A stretch of 64,000 nucleotides of DNA, taken from the sequence record PZ445511.1, one strand, 5' to 3'. This stretch comes from a phage. Position numbers and translations under genes: made by a program. Under the pieces are notes generated by a model. It saw nothing but the letters and a program-made list of their open reading frames with translations, did no database searches and was not told the origin of the DNA. Shown piece by piece: positions 1,870-40,276 of the stretch (within the stretch, counting starts at the first letter, position 1; each line of letters starts with the position of its first letter).

Positions 1870-3086
1870 TGGGTTTAAAAAGCTGGATTACTGAAAAGCT
1901 AAATCCGGGTCAACGTATTATAAGAGACATGGAACCAGTTAGTCATCGCACTAACCGTAAGCCATTTACCACTGGACAAGCCTACAGTAAGATTGAGATT
2001 CTCAACCGAACTGCTAACATGGTTATCGATAGTGCGGCGGAGTGTTCTTATACTGTCGGAGATAAATATAATATTGTCACGTACGCTAACGGCGTCAAGG
2101 CAAAGACTCTAGACACTCTCTTAAATGTACGACCTAATCCATTCATGGATATAAGCACATTCCGTAGACTTGTAGTCACTGACCTACTTTTTGAGGGTTG
2201 TGCATACATCTATTGGGATGGCACAGCACTTTACCATGTCCCTGCTGCACTAATGCAAGTAGAGGCAGATGCCAATAAGTTTATCAAAAAATTCATATTT
2301 AATAACCAGATAGACTATCGCGTAGATGAGATTATCTTTATAAAGGATAACAGTTACGTGTGTGGCACAAACTCCCAAATTTCTGGACAATCTCGTGTTG
2401 CTACAGTTATTGACTCTCTTGAGAAGCGTTCTAAAATGCTTAACTTTAAAGAGAAGTTCCTCGATAACGGCACAGTGATTGGTCTTATTCTTGAGACGGA
2501 TGAAATCCTGAACAAGAAATTGCGTGAGCGTAAACAAGAAGAATTACAACTCGATTATAATCCTAGTACTGGTCAGTCTACTGTCCTGATTCTAGATGGT
2601 GGTATGAAAGCAAAACCGTACTCCCAAATATCCTCTTTTAAAGATCTAGACTTCAAGGAAGATATCGAAGGATTTAATAAATCCATCTGTCTTGCCTTTG
2701 GTGTTCCGCAAGTGTTACTTGATGGTGGTAATAATGCTAACATTCGACCAAACATCGAATTGTTCTATTACATGACTATCATTCCTATGCTGAACAAGCT
2801 GACTAGTTCTCTTACTTTCTTCTTTGGCTACAAGGTTACTCCTAATACTAAGGAAGTAGCTGCACTGACGCCAGATAAAGAAGCTGAGGCTAAACATTTA
2901 ACCTCTTTGGTTAATAACGGTATCATGACTGGTAACGAAGCTCGTGAAGAGCTTAACCTTGAACCTTTAGATGATGAGCAGATGAATAAGATTCGTATTC
3001 CTGCTAACGTTGCTGGTTCTGCAACAGGTGTATCTGGTCAAGAAGGTGGTAGACCGCAAGGCACTGCCGATGGGGATAAAGAATGA
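1869..3086 (+). CDS. Portal protein (T5 pb7-like)
   Basis: 405 aa, position after terminase and before protease and capsid genes; start overlaps the HNH stop by 1 nt. Confidence 0.8.
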   Translation: MGLKSWITEKLNPGQRIIRDMEPVSHRTNRKPFTTGQAYSKIEILNRTANMVIDSAAECSYTVGDKYNIVTYANGVKAKTLDTLLNVRPNPFMDISTFRRLVVTDLLFEGCAYIYWDGTALYHVPAALMQVEADANKFIKKFIFNNQIDYRVDEIIFIKDNSYVCGTNSQISGQSRVATVIDSLEKRSKMLNFKEKFLDNGTVIGLILETDEILNKKLRERKQEELQLDYNPSTGQSTVLILDGGMKAKPYSQISSFKDLDFKEDIEGFNKSICLAFGVPQVLLDGGNNANIRPNIELFYYMTIIPMLNKLTSSLTFFFGYKVTPNTKEVAALTPDKEAEAKHLTSLVNNGIMTGNEAREELNLEPLDDEQMNKIRIPANVAGSATGVSGQEGGRPQGTADGDKE

Positions 3087-3565
3087 TTGATTATGATGGT
3101 CTAAAGGCCATTTTTGGTGAAAAGCTGCCAGAATCTCATATCTTCTTTGCTACGGTTGCAGCACACAAGTTCGTTCCAAACTACGCTACTCTACGTAAAG
3201 AGTTTGGAATGACCACTGCACATACCAACCGCAAGGTTTGGAATAAGTTCAAAGAAGCATACGAAGTTACTGCTCCGGTTGTTCCGGCTCTAGCTTTCAC
3301 GAAGAATCTGGCTAAAACTCTAGCTGTTGATACTAGTGCAGCAATTAATCTGGGCGTAACAGTTACTGGTGGTACTGCACCATATACTTATGCTTGGACT
3401 AAAGACGGTTCTCCACTTAGTGGTGTTACTGGCCCTAATTTCAACAAAGCTACAGCTGCTGCAGAAGATGCTGGTACTTACAAAGTTGTTGTAACGGATA
3501 GTAAATCTACTTCTATTACTTCTAACGAGTGCGTAACAACTATCAACCCTGCGCCGGAGGCTTAA
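3083..3565 (+). CDS. Capsid decoration protein with C-terminal Ig-like domain (T5 pb10-like)
   Basis: 160 aa; C-terminal Ig-like segment (TGGTAPYTYAWTKDGSPLSG...AGTYKVVVTD); position between portal and protease. Confidence 0.5.
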   Translation: MIDYDGLKAIFGEKLPESHIFFATVAAHKFVPNYATLRKEFGMTTAHTNRKVWNKFKEAYEVTAPVVPALAFTKNLAKTLAVDTSAAINLGVTVTGGTAPYTYAWTKDGSPLSGVTGPNFNKATAAAEDAGTYKVVVTDSKSTSITSNECVTTINPAPEA

Positions 3566-3568
3566 TAA

Positions 3569-4201
3569 ATGACAAATGCTGCTATTGACTATAACAAGTT
3601 AAAATCAGCACCGGTTCATTTAGACGCTTACATTAAGTCTATTGATAGCGAATCCAAAGAGGGTGTTATAAAAATCCGTGGATTCGCTAATACAATTAGT
3701 AAAGATCGTGCTGGTGACGTAATTCCTGCTTCGGCATGGAAAACGTCTAATGCACTTGCTAACTACATGAAAAACCCGATTATTCTTTTCGGCCACGACC
3801 ATCGTCGTCCAATCGGCAAGTGTATTGATCTTAACCCTACTGAAATGGGTCTCGAAATTGAATGCGAGATTTATGAAAGTTCTGATCCAGCTATCTTCTC
3901 ACTAATTAAAAACGGTGTACTGAAAACCTTCAGTATCGGATTCCGCTGCCTAGACGCAGAATGGGATGAAGCTACTGACATATTTATTATTAAAGATTTA
4001 GAACTATACGAAGTTTCGGTAGTTTCTGTACCTTGTAATCAGGACTCAACGTTCAACCTCGCTAAGAGTATGAATGGCCACGATTACACTGAATGGCGCA
4101 AATCTTTTACTGCAACAAGTTCTAAGGCTGTCCCAGCTCAAGAACGTAATCTTTCTGAACTAGAAAAACTTGCGATAGCTTTAGGCTACGTTAAAGAATA
4201 A
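3569..4201 (+). CDS. Prohead maturation protease (T5 pb11-like)
   Basis: 210 aa, immediately upstream of the major capsid gene; size and position match the T5 prohead protease. Confidence 0.7.
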   Translation: MTNAAIDYNKLKSAPVHLDAYIKSIDSESKEGVIKIRGFANTISKDRAGDVIPASAWKTSNALANYMKNPIILFGHDHRRPIGKCIDLNPTEMGLEIECEIYESSDPAIFSLIKNGVLKTFSIGFRCLDAEWDEATDIFIIKDLELYEVSVVSVPCNQDSTFNLAKSMNGHDYTEWRKSFTATSSKAVPAQERNLSELEKLAIALGYVKE

Positions 4202-19988: not shown

Positions 19989-20411
19989 ATGAGTACAGAA
20001 AACCGAGTTATTGATATTGTTGTTGATGAGAAAGTACCTTATGGTCTTATCATGCAGTTTATGGATGTTGATGACAGTGTATATCCACCAACAGAAGTTC
20101 CTGTTAACTTAACCGGATATTCACTCCGAGGAACTATTAAATCTAGTCTAGATGAGAACGCCGAGGTTCTAGCTAATTTTAAAACTCATATTATTGATGC
20201 TACTCAAGGTGCTGCTGCAATTAGTCTTTCCATTGCAGACACTACTAATATTAGTGAAAAAGCATCTAAAGAACGTGATAAGTATAACCCAAGACAACGT
20301 TTTGCTGGTTATTATGATATCATAATGACTCGTGATGTAATTGGCTCTGAAGTCAATTCTTTCCGTATTATGGAAGGTAAAGTATACATCAGCGATGGAG
20401 TAACTCAATAA
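19989..20411 (+). CDS. Collar protein (T5 p132-like)
   Basis: 140 aa immediately upstream of the L-shaped tail fibre gene. Confidence 0.55.
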
Positions 20412-22678
20412 TGGCACTTAAAACTAAAATTATTGTACAGCAGATTATGAACATAGATGACACTACAACTACTGCTAGTAAATATCCTAAGTACACAGTA
20501 GTTTTAGGTACTTCTATTAGTTCTATTACTGCTAGCGAACTAACAGCGGCTGTTGAGGTCTCTGCTGCTTCTGCTGCGGCAGCAAAAGATTCTGAAATTG
20601 CAGCAAAAGAATCTGAAATAAATGCTAAGGACTCTGAGAACCTATCTGCAAATTATGCTAACTCTTCAGAAGCTTCTGCAACTCAATCTGCTACTTCTGC
20701 TACTGAAGCGAAGAGACAAGCTGATTTATCTAAAGATAGTGCTGATGCCTCTGCTATTTCTGCTTCTCAATCTGCTGCGTCCGCTACTAAAGCTGCAGAA
20801 TCATCAGCTGCAGCAAAAACTAGTGAAACTAACGCTCTAGAATCATCAGCTGCAGCAAAAACTAGTGAGACTAATGCAAAAACTAGTGAGACTAATGCAA
20901 AAACTAGTGAGACTAATGCAGCAGCATATGCAGCAGCAGCAAAAACTAGCGAGACTAATGCTGCTGATTCCGCTGCCTCTGCTTCTGACTCCAAAGGATT
21001 CAGGGATGAAGCAGAAGCATTCGCTGCACAAGCCTCCACATCAGCATTAGCAGCAAAAAACTCAGAAACTAATACAAAGACTAGCGAAATTAACTCAAAA
21101 GCTAGTGAAGACGCTGCTAAGCTAGCTCAGCAAGGTGCATCAGATAGCGCGAACACAGCTACGCAAGCGATGACCACAATACAGGGTCTTAAGTCCGATG
21201 TTGAACAGCTTAAAGCTGACACTCAGACCATTAAAGAAGGTGCGGCGACAGAGATTAGAGCAGCTAAGACGGAGGCAGTAGGAGCAATTGACACAGCTAA
21301 GGTAAACGCAATTGCTGAAATCACCCCGTTAAAACAAGCTGCGGAAGACGCTGCCACCTTAGCTGGACAAAAGGCAGTAACGGCTACAGAACAGGCTACA
21401 GCCGCGGCTGGAAGCGCTACAACCGCAGGAGAACAAGCCGTAGCAGCATCCAGTTCCGCAACTCGAGCTGAGACCGCAGCAAACAAAGCTGAACAAACTT
21501 TGAGCATATCTTTGTTAAAGGATCAGAACCTTGCAGACTTAAGTGACAAGGTACAGGCTCGTATAAACCTAAGTGTGGATCGTCTTAAACAGAGCGCTGA
21601 TAGTTCCCGCATTTATGACCCGACAAACCGCTACAACTTAGTTGTAATGGATACAGGGTCTTGGGGTGTCTATGACGATACTAGTAATGTATTTAAACCT
21701 TTAGGAGTAGGACAGGGTGGCACGGGAGCTTGGGACGCAGAGGGTGCTCGCAACAACATCGGGGCGCTGTCCAAAGGTGGTGACACTGCGACCGCCATAA
21801 TTGCTACTAAACATTCTTATCCTGCTGGCTCAACAGGGCAAATTTTGGGTTGGTCGTGGCGATCAATTGTAGAAGGCTATGGTATCGGAACGGCGACTGC
21901 TGATTTTTACGTAAACCACACAGTAGGAAGCGTCACATATGCCTGCATTAAGCCTACTCGAGTGACCGGTGAAAGCTGGGAGTATCTTTTTAGCGACTTT
22001 GGCGAAATGTCTAATATTAGAAGCCTGATTATTAGTCGTAACACAGGTGCGGCAGGAGAGGCGTCCGGTAACATGGAGTTGAGTTATGGGGTGGGGCAGG
22101 TGACACAGTACGCCGCTCGTGTAGATTTTTACGATGGAACTGCACGATCTGTTTTAGATACCTACGATGCTACTCGCTTAACAACTCTCTTACCCTCGGC
22201 AGGTGTCATTTGCCGTAGAGGTATTGGTGGTAATTACCAAGCAAATAGCTATTCTTTCTCGTGGGAAAATCCGGGAGTAGATGTATGGATTGATAGTACT
22301 CGTATTGGGCGAGTAACGCTGGATCCTACAAGCGACATTGATTATAAAGAACAGGTTGAGCCATGGGACGGTAAGAGTGCGTTAAACAATATCAATCAGT
22401 TAGAGCTCGTGACGTTTATCTTCAAAGATGATATAAAGCGTCGGGTACGTCGTGGAATCATTGCACAGCAAGCGGCAACCATAGACCCTGAATACACACA
22501 CTCAAGCGAGGATAAGGAGGGAAATACAATTCTTTCGCTTGATACTAACGTGCTGTTACTGGATGCGCTTGCTGCTATCCAGGTGCTAAGCGCCCGTGTC
22601 AGTAAATTAGAGTCTTTGTTAGAAGATAAACCAACCACTCTACCTGAAGACCCCGCTCCAAATCAAGACCTTCCTTAA
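20411..22678 (+). CDS. L-shaped (side) tail fibre protein with C-terminal intramolecular chaperone (peptidase S74-like) domain
   Basis: 755 aa; Ala/Ser/Thr-rich repeats (KTSETNA x3) in the shaft; C-terminal auto-cleaving chaperone-like region (…DYKEQVEPWDGKSALNNINQLELVTF…GIIAQQAATIDPEY…). Confidence 0.75.
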   Translation: MALKTKIIVQQIMNIDDTTTTASKYPKYTVVLGTSISSITASELTAAVEVSAASAAAAKDSEIAAKESEINAKDSENLSANYANSSEASATQSATSATEAKRQADLSKDSADASAISASQSAASATKAAESSAAAKTSETNALESSAAAKTSETNAKTSETNAKTSETNAAAYAAAAKTSETNAADSAASASDSKGFRDEAEAFAAQASTSALAAKNSETNTKTSEINSKASEDAAKLAQQGASDSANTATQAMTTIQGLKSDVEQLKADTQTIKEGAATEIRAAKTEAVGAIDTAKVNAIAEITPLKQAAEDAATLAGQKAVTATEQATAAAGSATTAGEQAVAASSSATRAETAANKAEQTLSISLLKDQNLADLSDKVQARINLSVDRLKQSADSSRIYDPTNRYNLVVMDTGSWGVYDDTSNVFKPLGVGQGGTGAWDAEGARNNIGALSKGGDTATAIIATKHSYPAGSTGQILGWSWRSIVEGYGIGTATADFYVNHTVGSVTYACIKPTRVTGESWEYLFSDFGEMSNIRSLIISRNTGAAGEASGNMELSYGVGQVTQYAARVDFYDGTARSVLDTYDATRLTTLLPSAGVICRRGIGGNYQANSYSFSWENPGVDVWIDSTRIGRVTLDPTSDIDYKEQVEPWDGKSALNNINQLELVTFIFKDDIKRRVRRGIIAQQAATIDPEYTHSSEDKEGNTILSLDTNVLLLDALAAIQVLSARVSKLESLLEDKPTTLPEDPAPNQDLP
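20797..20960 (+). repeat. In-frame tandem repeats inside the tail fibre gene
   Basis: 21-nt unit AAAACTAGTGAGACTAATGCA x3 nested in a ~45-nt duplicated unit. Confidence 0.8.
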
Positions 22679-22683
22679 TCCTA

Positions 22684-22713
22684 AAATACGCGGCTTCGGC
22701 TGCGTATTTTTAT
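22684..22713 (+). terminator. Rho-independent terminator after the tail fibre gene
   Basis: ATACGCGGC-TTCG-GCTGCGTAT hairpin followed by TTTT. Confidence 0.65.
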
Positions 22714-22833
22714 CACTTTTAACTTTACAAAACTTTACATCAGATGCCAGGTAAACTTTTTGTTATGCACTATGCTTAACTCGTAATATGCGTGTTACAT
22801 GTGTTTAACAATCAACTCTCAGGAGTGTTTACT

Positions 22834-23163
22834 ATGTCTGACAGGACTCTTTTACCGACCAACATGGGCGGGCTCGGTGGTGACGGTGTTATGCCTGGTA
22901 TCGCTGCTTTTAGTGGTGCGCTGATTGATTCCTGGTTAGGTAATGGTGCGGGTGGTCGTGGTATTGGTGCGGGTGGTGTGGATGGCGCGGTTTCCGTTGC
23001 TAGTACTGCTGCAAACATGCTGACTACTTCACTGGTAAGCGATATCGAATCCATTCAGAGCGGACTGAACAATCTGGGCCTAACTGTTGTACAGGGTCAG
23101 GGTGCAACCAATCTGGCAATCGCTAACACAGGCGCAATGAACCTGAACGCTATTACCCAATAG
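22834..23163 (+). CDS. Glycine-rich hypothetical protein ending at an in-frame amber (TAG); the frame stays open 60 more codons to TGA at 23344-23346
   Basis: AGGAG RBS 8 nt before ATG 22834; GC-rich high-expression codon usage; coding character continues past the TAG. Confidence 0.4.
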   Translation: MSDRTLLPTNMGGLGGDGVMPGIAAFSGALIDSWLGNGAGGRGIGAGGVDGAVSVASTAANMLTTSLVSDIESIQSGLNNLGLTVVQGQGATNLAIANTGAMNLNAITQ

Positions 23164-23522
23164 AATACTCAAAACCTGTTGGCGTCTGTCCAGGGTTTTG
23201 TAGAGCTGAACACTGCGATCACCTCCAGCACTAGTACCATCGCTGGCGCGATCTCTGCTCAGTCGTTTGATCAACAGCGTACAGCATTCCAGGAGCAACT
23301 TGCCACTGAAAAAAAAATATTGCTGCGAAACAAGCCTGAATCTTGATTATCCTAGCAACGCAATGCATGTTCTACTGTATTAACAGTTCGCTGATTCTTA
23401 GGCTGTTCTTATGTACAATATGAAAACACAAAATGCAAGAGGTTCGTTTTGCACCCTCTCAGAAAAAAAAAAAAATTAATAAAATAAAGGAATTAGTAAA
23501 ACAACTCCTTACTAAATAAGAG

Positions 23523-23556
23523 AAAACCCCAGTGGATTGTTCACTGGGGTTTTTTA
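23523..23556. terminator. Bidirectional rho-independent terminator separating the late (+) and early (-) modules
   Basis: CCCCAGTG-loop-CACTGGGG hairpin flanked by A-run (23523-23526) and T-run (23550-23555). Confidence 0.7.
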
Positions 23557-23795
23557 TTACTCTTTACCTCCTGCGATAATACCTAAGTTATACACGGCAA
23601 GCATATCACTAATGGTAGGATCTTGAGACTCAGAACACAGTTTAATAAACCCTTCTTCATCCCATTGCTCTACATTGCCAAACATATCCACTTTTAGTAC
23701 TACCTTATCAAGGGTAGGGGGTGCTATAATCATATCATAGAAATTCGGGTGTTGATTAGCATCAATCTCTATTTGATTAGGATCAACAAAATTAC

Positions 23796-24242
23796 TTACT
23801 TACTTCCTGAGCTTCCAAAGCCGCCTTCTCCACGATCAGTCTCCTCTAGTTCGTCAACGATTTCAAAATGATTAATTGAGTAGTGTGGTAGTACTACTAG
23901 CTGACAAAGTCTCTCGAAATTCTCTAGAGTTTGCATTTCAGAACCGTAGTTAAACAGGTTCATCTTAATAGTACCACGGTAGTCTGAGTCGATCACTCCT
24001 GCGGTATTTGCGATCATTAGTTTACGCTTACCTAAAGAGCTGCGAGGAACTACCAAACCAAACCAACCTCGCGGAATTTCCACCGCGACACCGGTGTCTA
24101 TCATAAGGGATTTGCCTGGTGCAATAGCACGTAAATCTGCTGCAAGGTTAGTACCGAAGAATGCACGCAGATCCATACCTGCAGCATCATCAGAACCAAT
24201 CTTTGGCATGCAATCTGGATGGGTTAGTTTAATTTTAATCAT
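23796..24242 (-). CDS. dut: dUTP pyrophosphatase (dUTPase)
   Basis: 148 aa with canonical trimeric dUTPase motifs (AAGMDL, PRSSLG, GVIDSDYRG, C-terminal Gly-rich motif V). Confidence 0.85.
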   Translation of the reverse strand: MIKIKLTHPDCMPKIGSDDAAGMDLRAFFGTNLAADLRAIAPGKSLMIDTGVAVEIPRGWFGLVVPRSSLGKRKLMIANTAGVIDSDYRGTIKMNLFNYGSEMQTLENFERLCQLVVLPHYSINHFEIVDELEETDRGEGGFGSSGSK

Positions 24243-39970: not shown

Positions 39971-40276
39971 CTAGTTCTTGGCTTTGAGTTCTTCAGCTCG
40001 TTTCTGTACTTCATGCAATACCTCGGATTCACTGAGGATTTGCGTAAAAGCGTAAAATAGCTGTGATGTAGTTTCTAGGGTATAAGGAAAAGAGAAGCCG
40101 GATTTCGTTGGAAACCACTCTCCAGTAATATCTTGGAGCCAGTAACGAATTCCCATGTATAGATTCCCACGAAATTCAGATACGGTTAGTCTTACTTGTT
40201 CCCCCTCCTTCTCCCAAAGCATGATGGACTGGTCGTCAACGTGTCCTTCATAGTTTTGATTTACCTGATCGCTCAT
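39971..40276 (-). CDS. PC4-like ssDNA-binding protein
   Basis: RLTVSEFRGNLYMGIRYWL...PTKSGFSF matches the PC4/p15 fold signature. Confidence 0.5.
   Translation of the reverse strand: MSDQVNQNYEGHVDDQSIMLWEKEGEQVRLTVSEFRGNLYMGIRYWLQDITGEWFPTKSGFSFPYTLETTSQLFYAFTQILSESEVLHEVQKRAEELKAKN

What the first reader, a model, noticed from the sequence alone, without database searches (positions are those of the whole stretch)
22834..23346. GC-rich glycine-rich gene interrupted by an in-frame amber codon between the tail fibre and dut genes
An ORF with a good RBS (AGGAG, 8 nt, ATG at 22834) encodes a Gly-rich N-terminus (GGLGGDGV...GNGAGGRGIGAGG) followed by an Ala/Thr/Asn-rich region. It ends at TAG 23161-23163, but the same frame stays open 60 more codons with the same composition and GC-rich, high-expression codon usage, stopping at TGA 23344-23346. 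So the TAG looks like an internal nonsense codon in a ~170-aa gene rather than a natural end. It could be a laboratory amber mutation (classic in T5 genetics), an accessory gene being lost, a sequencing error, or stop-codon readthrough. The Gly-rich N-terminus loosely recalls bacteriocin or colicin-type domains, but I cannot assign a family.
Basis: seen in the sequence. Interest (0 to 1): 0.7.

Follow-up and report, generated by a model that had tools for sequence, protein, structure and literature searches.

The report
Dead tail-fibre-linked gene with amber stop
The amber codon really does cut a once-longer gene, but the gene is a decaying remnant, broken in several other places too, that came in with a swapped tail-fibre cassette in this group of T5-like Salmonella phages; this is ordinary gene decay, not recoding or a laboratory mutation.

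Summary
ATG 22834 (AGGAG 8 nt upstream) opens a 109-codon ORF that ends at TAG 23161-23163, and the frame stays open to TGA 23344-23346.

The TAG replaces an invariant Gln codon (CAG) of a conserved phage family, phrog_9288. Family members are about 230-258 aa, of unknown function, and in each small-siphovirus locus read here the gene lies directly downstream of a lateral tail fibre gene.

The gene was never about 170 aa, and TGA 23344 is not its natural end:
- An A-run (23309-23317) shifts the frame.
- The family's most conserved C-terminal half survives only as an out-of-frame, AT-rich relic (23312-23449, weakly to about 23540) with two more stops.

All 44 public phage records that carry this tail-fibre cassette have the same TAG. 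This rules out a sequencing error or a laboratory amber mutation.

Readthrough is not supported:
- No CUA tRNA was found in the window or in the remainder of a close relative's genome.
- TAG ends other annotated genes.
- The A-run varies from 6 to 24 bases among relatives.
- Substitutions in the 109-codon ORF fit neutrality (pN/pS 1.14), while the adjacent fibre gene gives 0.42.

Phages with another fibre allele share only the sequence from the A-run onward. The locus is therefore a chimeric pseudogene: a younger 5' fragment joined to an older 3' relic. Interest is low.

The parts
20411..22678 (+). Lateral (L-shaped) tail fibre gene, 755 aa. From about 21181 onward it belongs to the swapped cassette. 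The N-terminal part (20751-21180) is shared at 97% with phages that carry another fibre allele.
   Evidence: ORF list; relatives' annotation as 'L-shaped tail fiber'; blastn against SB13 and faergetype
22683..22710 (+). Terminator-like hairpin directly after the tail fibre gene
22821..22825 (+). Shine-Dalgarno AGGAG, 8 nt before the ATG
   Evidence: sequence
22834..23163 (+). 109-codon ORF: the 5' fragment of a phrog_9288-family gene, ending at the amber codon. Relatives annotate it as 'hypothetical protein'.
   Evidence: pN/pS 1.14
23161..23163 (+). TAG replacing the family's invariant Gln codon (CAG in the intact homologues L011, PaulSarasin and BHUENT9): a single C>T transition at 23161
   Evidence: present in 44 of 44 records
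23164..23308 (+). Codons 111-158, still in the original frame and homologous to intact family members (NTQNLLASVQGF...FDQQRTAFQEQL)
23309..23317 (+). A-run of 9 bases here and 6-24 bases in relatives. It shifts the frame in this window and marks the right-hand junction of the swapped tail-fibre cassette.
23312..23449 (+). Older 3' relic in another frame (KKYCCETSLNLDYPSNAMHVLLY*QFADS*AVLMYNMKTQ...), equivalent to family residues 152-197. It has in-frame stops at 23381-23383 (TAA) and 23399-23401 (TAG). The relic and both stops are shared with Epseptimaviruses that carry other fibre alleles.
23424..23540 (+). Weak third-frame trace of the family's C-terminus (residues about 189-233). It is AT-rich and includes a second length-variable A-run at 23463-23475.
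   Evidence: weak, sum-statistics E 2e-9
23521..23555 (.). Bidirectional terminator-like hairpin between this locus and the converging minus-strand genes (58-aa ORF, dut)

Best explanation
The locus is a chimeric pseudogene of the phrog_9288 family. In every small-siphovirus locus read here, this family's gene lies directly downstream of a lateral tail fibre gene whose product ends in an S74-type chaperone domain.

Shown:
1. The whole gene of about 236 codons can be traced from 22834 to about 23449, and weakly to about 23540.
2. Codon 110 is TAG where intact members have an invariant CAG.
3. The A-run at 23309-23317 shifts the frame.
4. The family's most conserved C-terminal half survives only as an out-of-frame relic with two further stops.
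5. Epseptimaviruses with a different tail-fibre allele share the sequence only from the A-run onward, including those two stops.

Inferred:
- An ancestral T5-like phage acquired a fibre gene together with a phrog_9288 gene, and the latter decayed.
- A later cassette exchange replaced the distal fibre and brought in a fresher 5' fragment (GC 0.52), with the right-hand crossover inside this gene. That fragment was joined to the old relic (GC 0.33).
- The fragment could therefore never have encoded a complete protein. The C>T change that created TAG, and slippage in the A-run, are unconstrained lesions.
- A 109-aa peptide may still be made from the intact RBS and ATG, but nothing suggests that it is selected or that the TAG is read through.
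For: - Intact homologues read through the site: PaulSarasin bas09_0032 (236 aa), BHUENT9, and P0004 (245 aa, 70% identical, in a Drexlerviridae-like context).
- They carry CAG at the TAG position, and the Gln is invariant in 28 of 28 aligned members.
- tblastn of the intact protein against the window gives three frames. Residues 1-153 include the TAG. Residues 152-197 lie in a second frame with two stops. Residues 189-233 lie weakly in a third frame.
- The PHROG profile is matched only at positions 1-152 of 234.
- All 44 records with this cassette have TAG.
- Among relatives, the A-run is 6-24 bases long, SE20 has a +G frameshift before TAG, KKP_3831 has a +A after it, and bux has GAA>TAA.
- Substitutions in codons 1-109 are 19 non-synonymous to 6 synonymous, pN/pS 1.14, which fits neutrality (binomial p = 1.0). 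The adjacent tail fibre gene in a subset of the same phages (7 sequences) gives 45 to 33, pN/pS 0.42, departing from neutrality at p = 2e-4.
- Homology to SB13 and faergetype, which carry another fibre allele, starts at the A-run (window 23313) and includes the shared stops.
- GC content is 0.52 for the 5' fragment and 0.33 for the 3' relic.
- No tRNA with a CUA anticodon was found in the window or in PMBT36 62-111.7 kb. TAG ends other annotated genes.
- In IMG/VR, loci carrying the family's conserved C-terminal motifs were found only on contigs of 75 kb or less.
Against: - The RBS, the ATG and 109 sense codons are intact in 43 of 44 records, so a short Gly-rich peptide could be made and could have some function.
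- Substitution counts are small. The direct comparison of the ORF with the fibre gene is not significant (Fisher p = 0.15).
- The post-TAG segment gives pN/pS 0.38 from only 11 changes, which is not distinguishable from neutrality (p = 0.10).
- The order of events (TAG before or after the cassette transfer) and the donor phage are not established. The closest intact gene is only 70% identical, and its fibre gene is not the same allele.
- The tRNA set was checked in a close relative, not in the unseen remainder of this genome.
Confidence: 0.85

Rival explanations
1. The 109-aa N-terminal fragment is a functional, truncated protein in its own right, for example a Gly-zipper-like small peptide. 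On this view TAG is now its real stop.
For: - The RBS, the ATG and the 109-codon ORF are preserved in 43 of 44 records, and most records annotate it as a CDS.
- The 155 bp upstream are almost invariant among relatives.
- A different truncated 5' remnant (65 aa) also persists in Tequintavirus Gostya9.
Against: - pN/pS is 1.14 (19 non-synonymous to 6 synonymous), as expected under neutrality, while the neighbouring fibre gene gives 0.42.
- SE20 has a frameshift inside the ORF, and the Gly-rich part carries in-frame indels.
- The cassette is 3.6% or less diverged, so an open 109-codon frame is expected without any selection.
- The part that is retained is the family's least conserved region.
Confidence: 0.1
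2. TAG is decoded, by programmed readthrough or by a phage or host amber suppressor, to give a longer product.
For: - The frame stays open for 60 codons after TAG with family-like sequence.
- pN/pS after TAG is nominally 0.38.
- T5-like phages carry large tRNA sets.
- No ORF of 150 aa or more in the window ends in TAG.
Against: - None of the 28 tRNAs in the remainder of the close relative PMBT36's genome has a CUA anticodon, and the window has no tRNA.
- TAG ends other annotated genes.
- The A-run length of 6-24 bases puts the downstream sequence in different frames in different relatives. KKP_3831 is frameshifted just after TAG, and bux has a further TAA.
- Any readthrough product would lack the conserved C-terminal half, which is broken by further stops in every frame.
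- The value 0.38 rests on 11 changes (p = 0.10).
Confidence: 0.03
3. The TAG is an artefact: a sequencing or assembly error, or a laboratory amber mutation of the kind classically isolated in T5.
For: Nothing beyond the historical use of amber mutants in T5 genetics (general knowledge).
Against: An identical TAG is present in all 44 independently sequenced records, wild isolates from several countries. It is also reflected in 107-110-aa protein entries from NCBI and Logan assemblies.
Confidence: 0.01

Closest known systems
phrog_9288 family, for example Escherichia phage PaulSarasin bas09_0032 (QXV83677.1, 236 aa, annotated 'putative sugar-binding protein'). Homologues occur in Drexlerviridae, Queuovirinae (Seuratvirus, Nonagvirus) and Sashavirus, and in Yersinia PY100 and Edwardsiella eiAU.
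   Same: - Position directly downstream of a lateral tail fibre gene with an S74-type C-terminal chaperone domain.
- Gly-rich N-terminus and the NTQNLLASVQGF...FDQQRTAF core.
- 57-70% identity over residues 1-153.
- Profile match E = 2.6e-38.
   Different: - The window copy has TAG at the invariant Gln and a frameshift in an A-run.
- It has no intact CCCETNLNIERQ...LICD.K...NFKLPTPPTPP(GCC) half, which is the family's most conserved part.
- It is a pseudogene, not a working member.
Other T5-like remnants of the same gene: Tequintavirus Gostya9 HOT33_gp075 (65 aa), and the 3'-only relics in Epseptimaviruses SB13 and faergetype
   Same: - Same position between the ltf and dut genes.
- Same family origin.
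- The same 3' relic with shared stops in SB13 and faergetype.
   Different: The breakpoints differ. Gostya9 keeps only about 47 N-terminal residues. SB13 and faergetype keep only residues from about 147 onward. The window keeps residues 1-159 plus the relic.
Tail-fibre locus mosaicism in Markadamsvirinae (BASEL collection paper, PMC8594841, S3 Fig legend)
   Same: Sequence identity is high on both flanks and drops across the lateral tail fibre genes, which is the pattern expected for cassette exchange (seen here).
   Different: That paper does not describe the downstream gene remnant or a junction inside it.
Programmed stop-codon readthrough or phage-encoded suppressor tRNAs (for example Qbeta A1, or TAG-recoded phages; general knowledge)
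   Same: An in-frame stop with an open, protein-like downstream frame.
   Different: There is no suppressor tRNA, the downstream frame is not conserved, TAG is used as an ordinary stop, and no complete product is possible.

Membership tests
phrog_9288 (protein encoded downstream of the lateral tail fibre gene) | Significant match to the family profile | tested here: met
   E = 2.6e-38, but only profile positions 1-152 of 234. Residues 1-153 are 57% identical to PaulSarasin, and the 161-aa conceptual query (Q at the TAG) is 70% identical to P0004 over 99% of its length.
phrog_9288 (protein encoded downstream of the lateral tail fibre gene) | Uninterrupted ORF of about 229-258 aa | tested here: not met
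   TAG at codon 110, a frameshift at 23309-23317, and further stops at 23381 and 23399.
phrog_9288 (protein encoded downstream of the lateral tail fibre gene) | Conserved C-terminal half (CCCETNLNIERQ, TR..L, LICD.K, NFKLPTPPTPP) | tested here: not met
   Present only as an out-of-frame, 43%-identical relic with stops. The PTPPTPP and Cys tail is not recognisable.
phrog_9288 (protein encoded downstream of the lateral tail fibre gene) | Gene directly downstream of a lateral tail fibre gene with an S74-type chaperone domain | tested here: met
   The window's fibre gene (20411-22678) is followed by this locus. The same order is seen in PaulSarasin, BHUENT9 and L011, and the two are fused in KurtStettler.
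Pseudogene / gene remnant | Intact homologues carry a sense codon at the stop position | tested here: met
   CAG in L011, PaulSarasin and BHUENT9; the Gln is invariant in 28 of 28 members.
Pseudogene / gene remnant | Additional independent disabling lesions | tested here: met
   A frameshift and two more stops in the window. Relatives carry further lesions: SE20 +G, KKP_3831 +A, bux TAA.
Pseudogene / gene remnant | Substitution pattern consistent with neutrality | tested here: met
   pN/pS is 1.14 for codons 1-109, against 0.42 for the adjacent fibre gene. Power is limited.
Programmed readthrough / amber suppression | A decoding agent (tRNA with CUA anticodon), or reassignment of TAG across the genome | tested here: not met
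   No tRNA in the window. 28 tRNAs in PMBT36 62-111.7 kb, none with CUA. TAG ends annotated genes. The remainder of this exact genome was not available.
Programmed readthrough / amber suppression | Downstream frame conserved and yielding a complete domain | tested here: not met
   The A-run of 6-24 bases changes the frame among relatives. The C-terminal half is destroyed.
Programmed readthrough / amber suppression | A readthrough product detected | not testable with these tools
   Needs proteomics or ribosome profiling.
   No Pfam, NCBIfam or PDB sequence match above noise, either for the window product or for intact family members.

The most novel reading that the evidence does not exclude
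The conserved phrog_9288 gene may act as the right-hand homology arm for exchange of lateral tail fibre cassettes between otherwise unrelated siphovirus families (Drexlerviridae, Queuovirinae, Demerecviridae). On this reading, T5-like phages, which evidently do not need the protein, keep its dead remnants as recombination scars or landing pads. The intact family would be an uncharacterised fibre-associated coiled-coil protein with a Gly-rich N-terminus, a single helix of about 140 residues and a Cys-rich tail.
Probability: 0.3. Interest if true: 0.4.

Novelty: new member of a known kind. Interest (0 to 1): 0.2.

Why it matters
Mainly as a correction.
- The 'hypothetical protein' of 107-110 aa annotated downstream of the tail fibre gene in relatives that carry this cassette is the stump of a dead gene. 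The small ORFs annotated after it (S126 orf22, SE20, vB_SenS-3) are pieces of the same wreck.
- The locus gives a precise map of one tail-fibre cassette swap in T5-like Salmonella phages, about 21181-23313 in this window, with the right-hand junction inside a gene shared with T1-like and Seuratvirus-like phages. This is useful for host-range engineering and for tracing fibre exchange between phage families.
- It implies that the phrog_9288 protein is dispensable for these T5-like phages.
- It does not bear on genetic-code variation or readthrough.

Tried and rejected
- Pfam, NCBIfam and PDB sequence searches, with the window product and with intact family members, gave only noise.
- AlphaFold2 of the closest intact homologue (P0004, 28-sequence alignment) had low confidence (pLDDT 57). 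It showed a disordered Gly-rich N-terminus and one long helix at residues 88-228. A fold search would have been meaningless, so none was run.
- Rfam at a permissive threshold over 22600-23800 gave only sub-threshold hits on the terminator hairpin.
- The strict sigma-70 scan found no promoter between the two terminators.
- An exact-pattern scan of IMG/VR allowing any base at the first position of the TAG found only phage H8, which has T there.
- Two full-text literature searches and two papers found no description of this gene or its family.
- Genome-wide TAG recoding was considered because none of the 43 ORFs of 150 aa or more ends in TAG. It was rejected because TAG ends smaller annotated genes and no long gene is split by TAG.
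- Co-transfer of the fibre gene and the downstream gene from the closest intact source was tested. The fibre proteins are related only in the chaperone domain (41% identity), so the donor is not in the databases searched.

Full report
**1. Observation**

- AGGAG lies at 22821-22825, followed by an 8-nt spacer and ATG at 22834.
- The N-terminus is Gly-rich.
- TAG lies at 23161-23163, as codon 110.
- The same frame stays open for 60 more codons, to TGA 23344-23346.

The locus lies between the 755-aa lateral tail fibre gene (20411-22678, +) and the converging minus-strand genes, a 58-aa ORF and dut. Terminator-like hairpins bracket it at 22683-22710 and 23521-23555. The window is a T5-like Epseptimavirus: the 881-bp region is 99% identical to Salmonella phages SE24, RA40, gmork and PMBT36.

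**2. The TAG interrupts a real, conserved gene**

A tblastn search with the conceptual read-through product found about 100 records of small siphoviruses (Drexlerviridae, Seuratvirus/Nonagvirus, Sashavirus and others). Their proteins align without a break across the TAG, over query residues 71-166.

The family is phrog_9288, of unknown function. An intact member matches the profile from end to end (E = 7e-123). The window product matches only profile positions 1-152 of 234 (E = 2.6e-38).

Intact members are 229-258 aa. In an alignment of 28 of them, the residue at the TAG position is an invariant Gln (Q112 of P0004). Its codon is CAG in all three intact loci read (L011, PaulSarasin, BHUENT9). 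The window has TAG, a single C>T change at 23161.

**3. The gene is broken in more places than the TAG**

tblastn of the intact PaulSarasin protein against 22700-23600 traces the whole gene across three frames.
- Residues 1-153 lie at 22834-23313 and include the TAG.
- Residues 152-197 lie in a second frame at 23312-23449: KKYCCETSLNLDYPSNAMHVLLY*QFADS*AVLMYNMKTQ. This frame has stops at 23381 and 23399.
- Residues 189-233 leave a weak trace in a third frame, to about 23540.

The frame change sits in the A-run at 23309-23317. TGA 23344 is therefore not the gene's natural end. The family's most conserved half (CCCETNLNIERQ...LICD.K...NFKLPTPPTPP) is exactly the part that is wrecked.

**4. Conservation among relatives**

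All 44 phage records that carry this cassette have the TAG.
- 41 share an identical 41-mer around it.
- The two KKP_3831 records match through it.
- gmork's single mismatch lies in the next codon.
- Direct alignment of 14 loci, plus a separate check of atrejo, agrees.

This excludes a sequencing error or a laboratory amber mutation.

The same alignment shows unconstrained decay.
- The A-run is 6, 7, 8, 9, 14 or 24 bases long in different phages, so the downstream frame differs among them.
- SE20 has a +G frameshift before the TAG.
- KKP_3831 has a +A just after it.
- bux has an extra TAA.
- The Gly-rich part carries in-frame indels.

Substitution counts:

| Region | Non-synonymous | Synonymous | pN/pS | Test against neutrality |
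|---|---|---|---|---|
| Codons 1-109 | 19 | 6 | 1.14 | binomial p = 1.0 (fits) |
| Adjacent fibre gene, 7 of these sequences | 45 | 33 | 0.42 | p = 2e-4 (departs) |
| Post-TAG segment | 6 | 5 | 0.38 | p = 0.10 (too few changes) |

The direct comparison of the ORF with the fibre gene is not significant (Fisher p = 0.15).

**5. Readthrough and recoding**

- The window has no tRNA gene.
- The remainder of the genome of the close relative PMBT36 has 28 tRNAs by ARAGORN, none with a CUA anticodon.
- None of the 43 ORFs of 150 aa or more ends in TAG. However, TAG ends smaller annotated genes, for example window 39971-40276, and 2 of 18 CDS in a PMBT36 stretch.
- No long gene is split by TAG.
- Even if the TAG were read, the product would run into the frameshift and the dead relic.

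**6. Origin**

Epseptimaviruses with a different fibre allele (SB13, faergetype; 984-aa fibre) match the window in two places. One is the fibre's N-terminal part (20751-21180, 97%). The other runs from the A-run onward (from window 23313). In those phages the relic TEKYCCETSLNIDY...LLC*QFADS* follows the fibre stop codon after a 21-nt spacer and carries the same two stops.

The swapped cassette is therefore about 21181-23313, and its right-hand junction lies inside this gene.

GC content by segment:

| Segment | GC |
|---|---|
| 5' fragment | 0.52 |
| Distal fibre | 0.47 |
| 3' relic | 0.33 |
| Whole window | 0.40 |

I infer a chimeric pseudogene: a younger 5' fragment that arrived with the cassette, joined to an older and already dead 3' relic. 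On that reading the fragment could never have encoded a full protein, and the TAG is one unconstrained lesion among several.

Supporting observations:
- The cassette is 96-99.8% identical across the 44 records, so the shared TAG reflects common descent.
- Tequintavirus Gostya9 carries a different stump of the same gene (65 aa) at the same position.
- Intact copies were found only in genomes or contigs of 75 kb or less. The closest, P0004, lies in a Drexlerviridae-like context of primase, fibre, this gene, ERF and exonuclease.
- The donor was not identified. P0004's fibre is related to the window's only in the chaperone domain.

**7. The parent family**

No Pfam, NCBIfam or PDB sequence match was found. 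AlphaFold2 gives a low-confidence model (pLDDT 57): a disordered Gly-rich N-terminus (residues 1-63), one helix spanning residues 88-228, and a Pro- and Cys-rich tail.

In the four small-siphovirus loci read, the gene follows an S74-type lateral fibre gene. In Seuratvirus KurtStettler it is fused in frame to the fibre protein's chaperone domain. I infer a fibre-associated, probably oligomeric coiled-coil protein. GenBank labels such as 'sugar-binding protein' and 'lateral tail fiber chaperone' are untested. The literature searched does not discuss the family.

**8. Verdict**

This is an ordinary pseudogene at a tail-fibre cassette junction, of low interest beyond correcting annotations and mapping the recombination junction.

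Noticed in passing
L020 (Salmonella phage PMBT36, record 62000-111703), locus 3712-3785, + strand: ARAGORN calls a tRNA with anticodon TCA (labelled SeC; it would read UGA). The record does not annotate it, and it overlaps the start of a hypothetical CDS just after a homing endonuclease gene. It could be an opal-suppressor-like tRNA or a false call.
   Followed up: no
window 1-64000: None of the 43 ATG-initiated ORFs of 150 aa or more ends in TAG (33 TAA, 10 TGA). TAG does end smaller annotated genes such as 39971-40276 (-). This looks like a strong stop-codon bias rather than recoding.
   Followed up: partly
window 23309-23317 and 23463-23475: Two homopolymer A-runs vary greatly in length among otherwise 97-99% identical phages (6-24 A at the first run). 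The first run coincides with the tail-fibre cassette junction.
   Followed up: partly
L024 (Escherichia phage KurtStettler, Seuratvirus) 1882-3414: A 510-aa protein annotated 'putative lateral tail fiber chaperone' is an in-frame fusion. An S74 chaperone-domain fibre protein is joined to the body of the phrog_9288 protein, which lacks about 20 N-terminal residues. This suggests a functional link between the two.
   Followed up: partly
L023 (Escherichia phage Gostya9, Tequintavirus) 3041-3238: A 65-aa 'hypothetical protein' between ltfA and dut is another truncated 5' stump of the same family. It is joined directly to sequence resembling the terminator-proximal relic.
   Followed up: partly
window 20750-21050: The N-terminal part of the tail fibre gene contains Ala/Ser/Thr-rich tandem repeats (AAKTSETNA...). 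Phages with a different distal fibre share this part at 97%, so it is probably the conserved attachment region and the left-hand arm of the cassette.
   Followed up: no
window 22680-22833: The 155 bp between the fibre gene's stop codon and the ATG are nearly invariant across 14 relatives (two variable positions), while the ORF that follows varies at about 8% of sites. The region includes the terminator hairpin and repeated TTTACA motifs. No consensus sigma-70 promoter was found.
   Followed up: no
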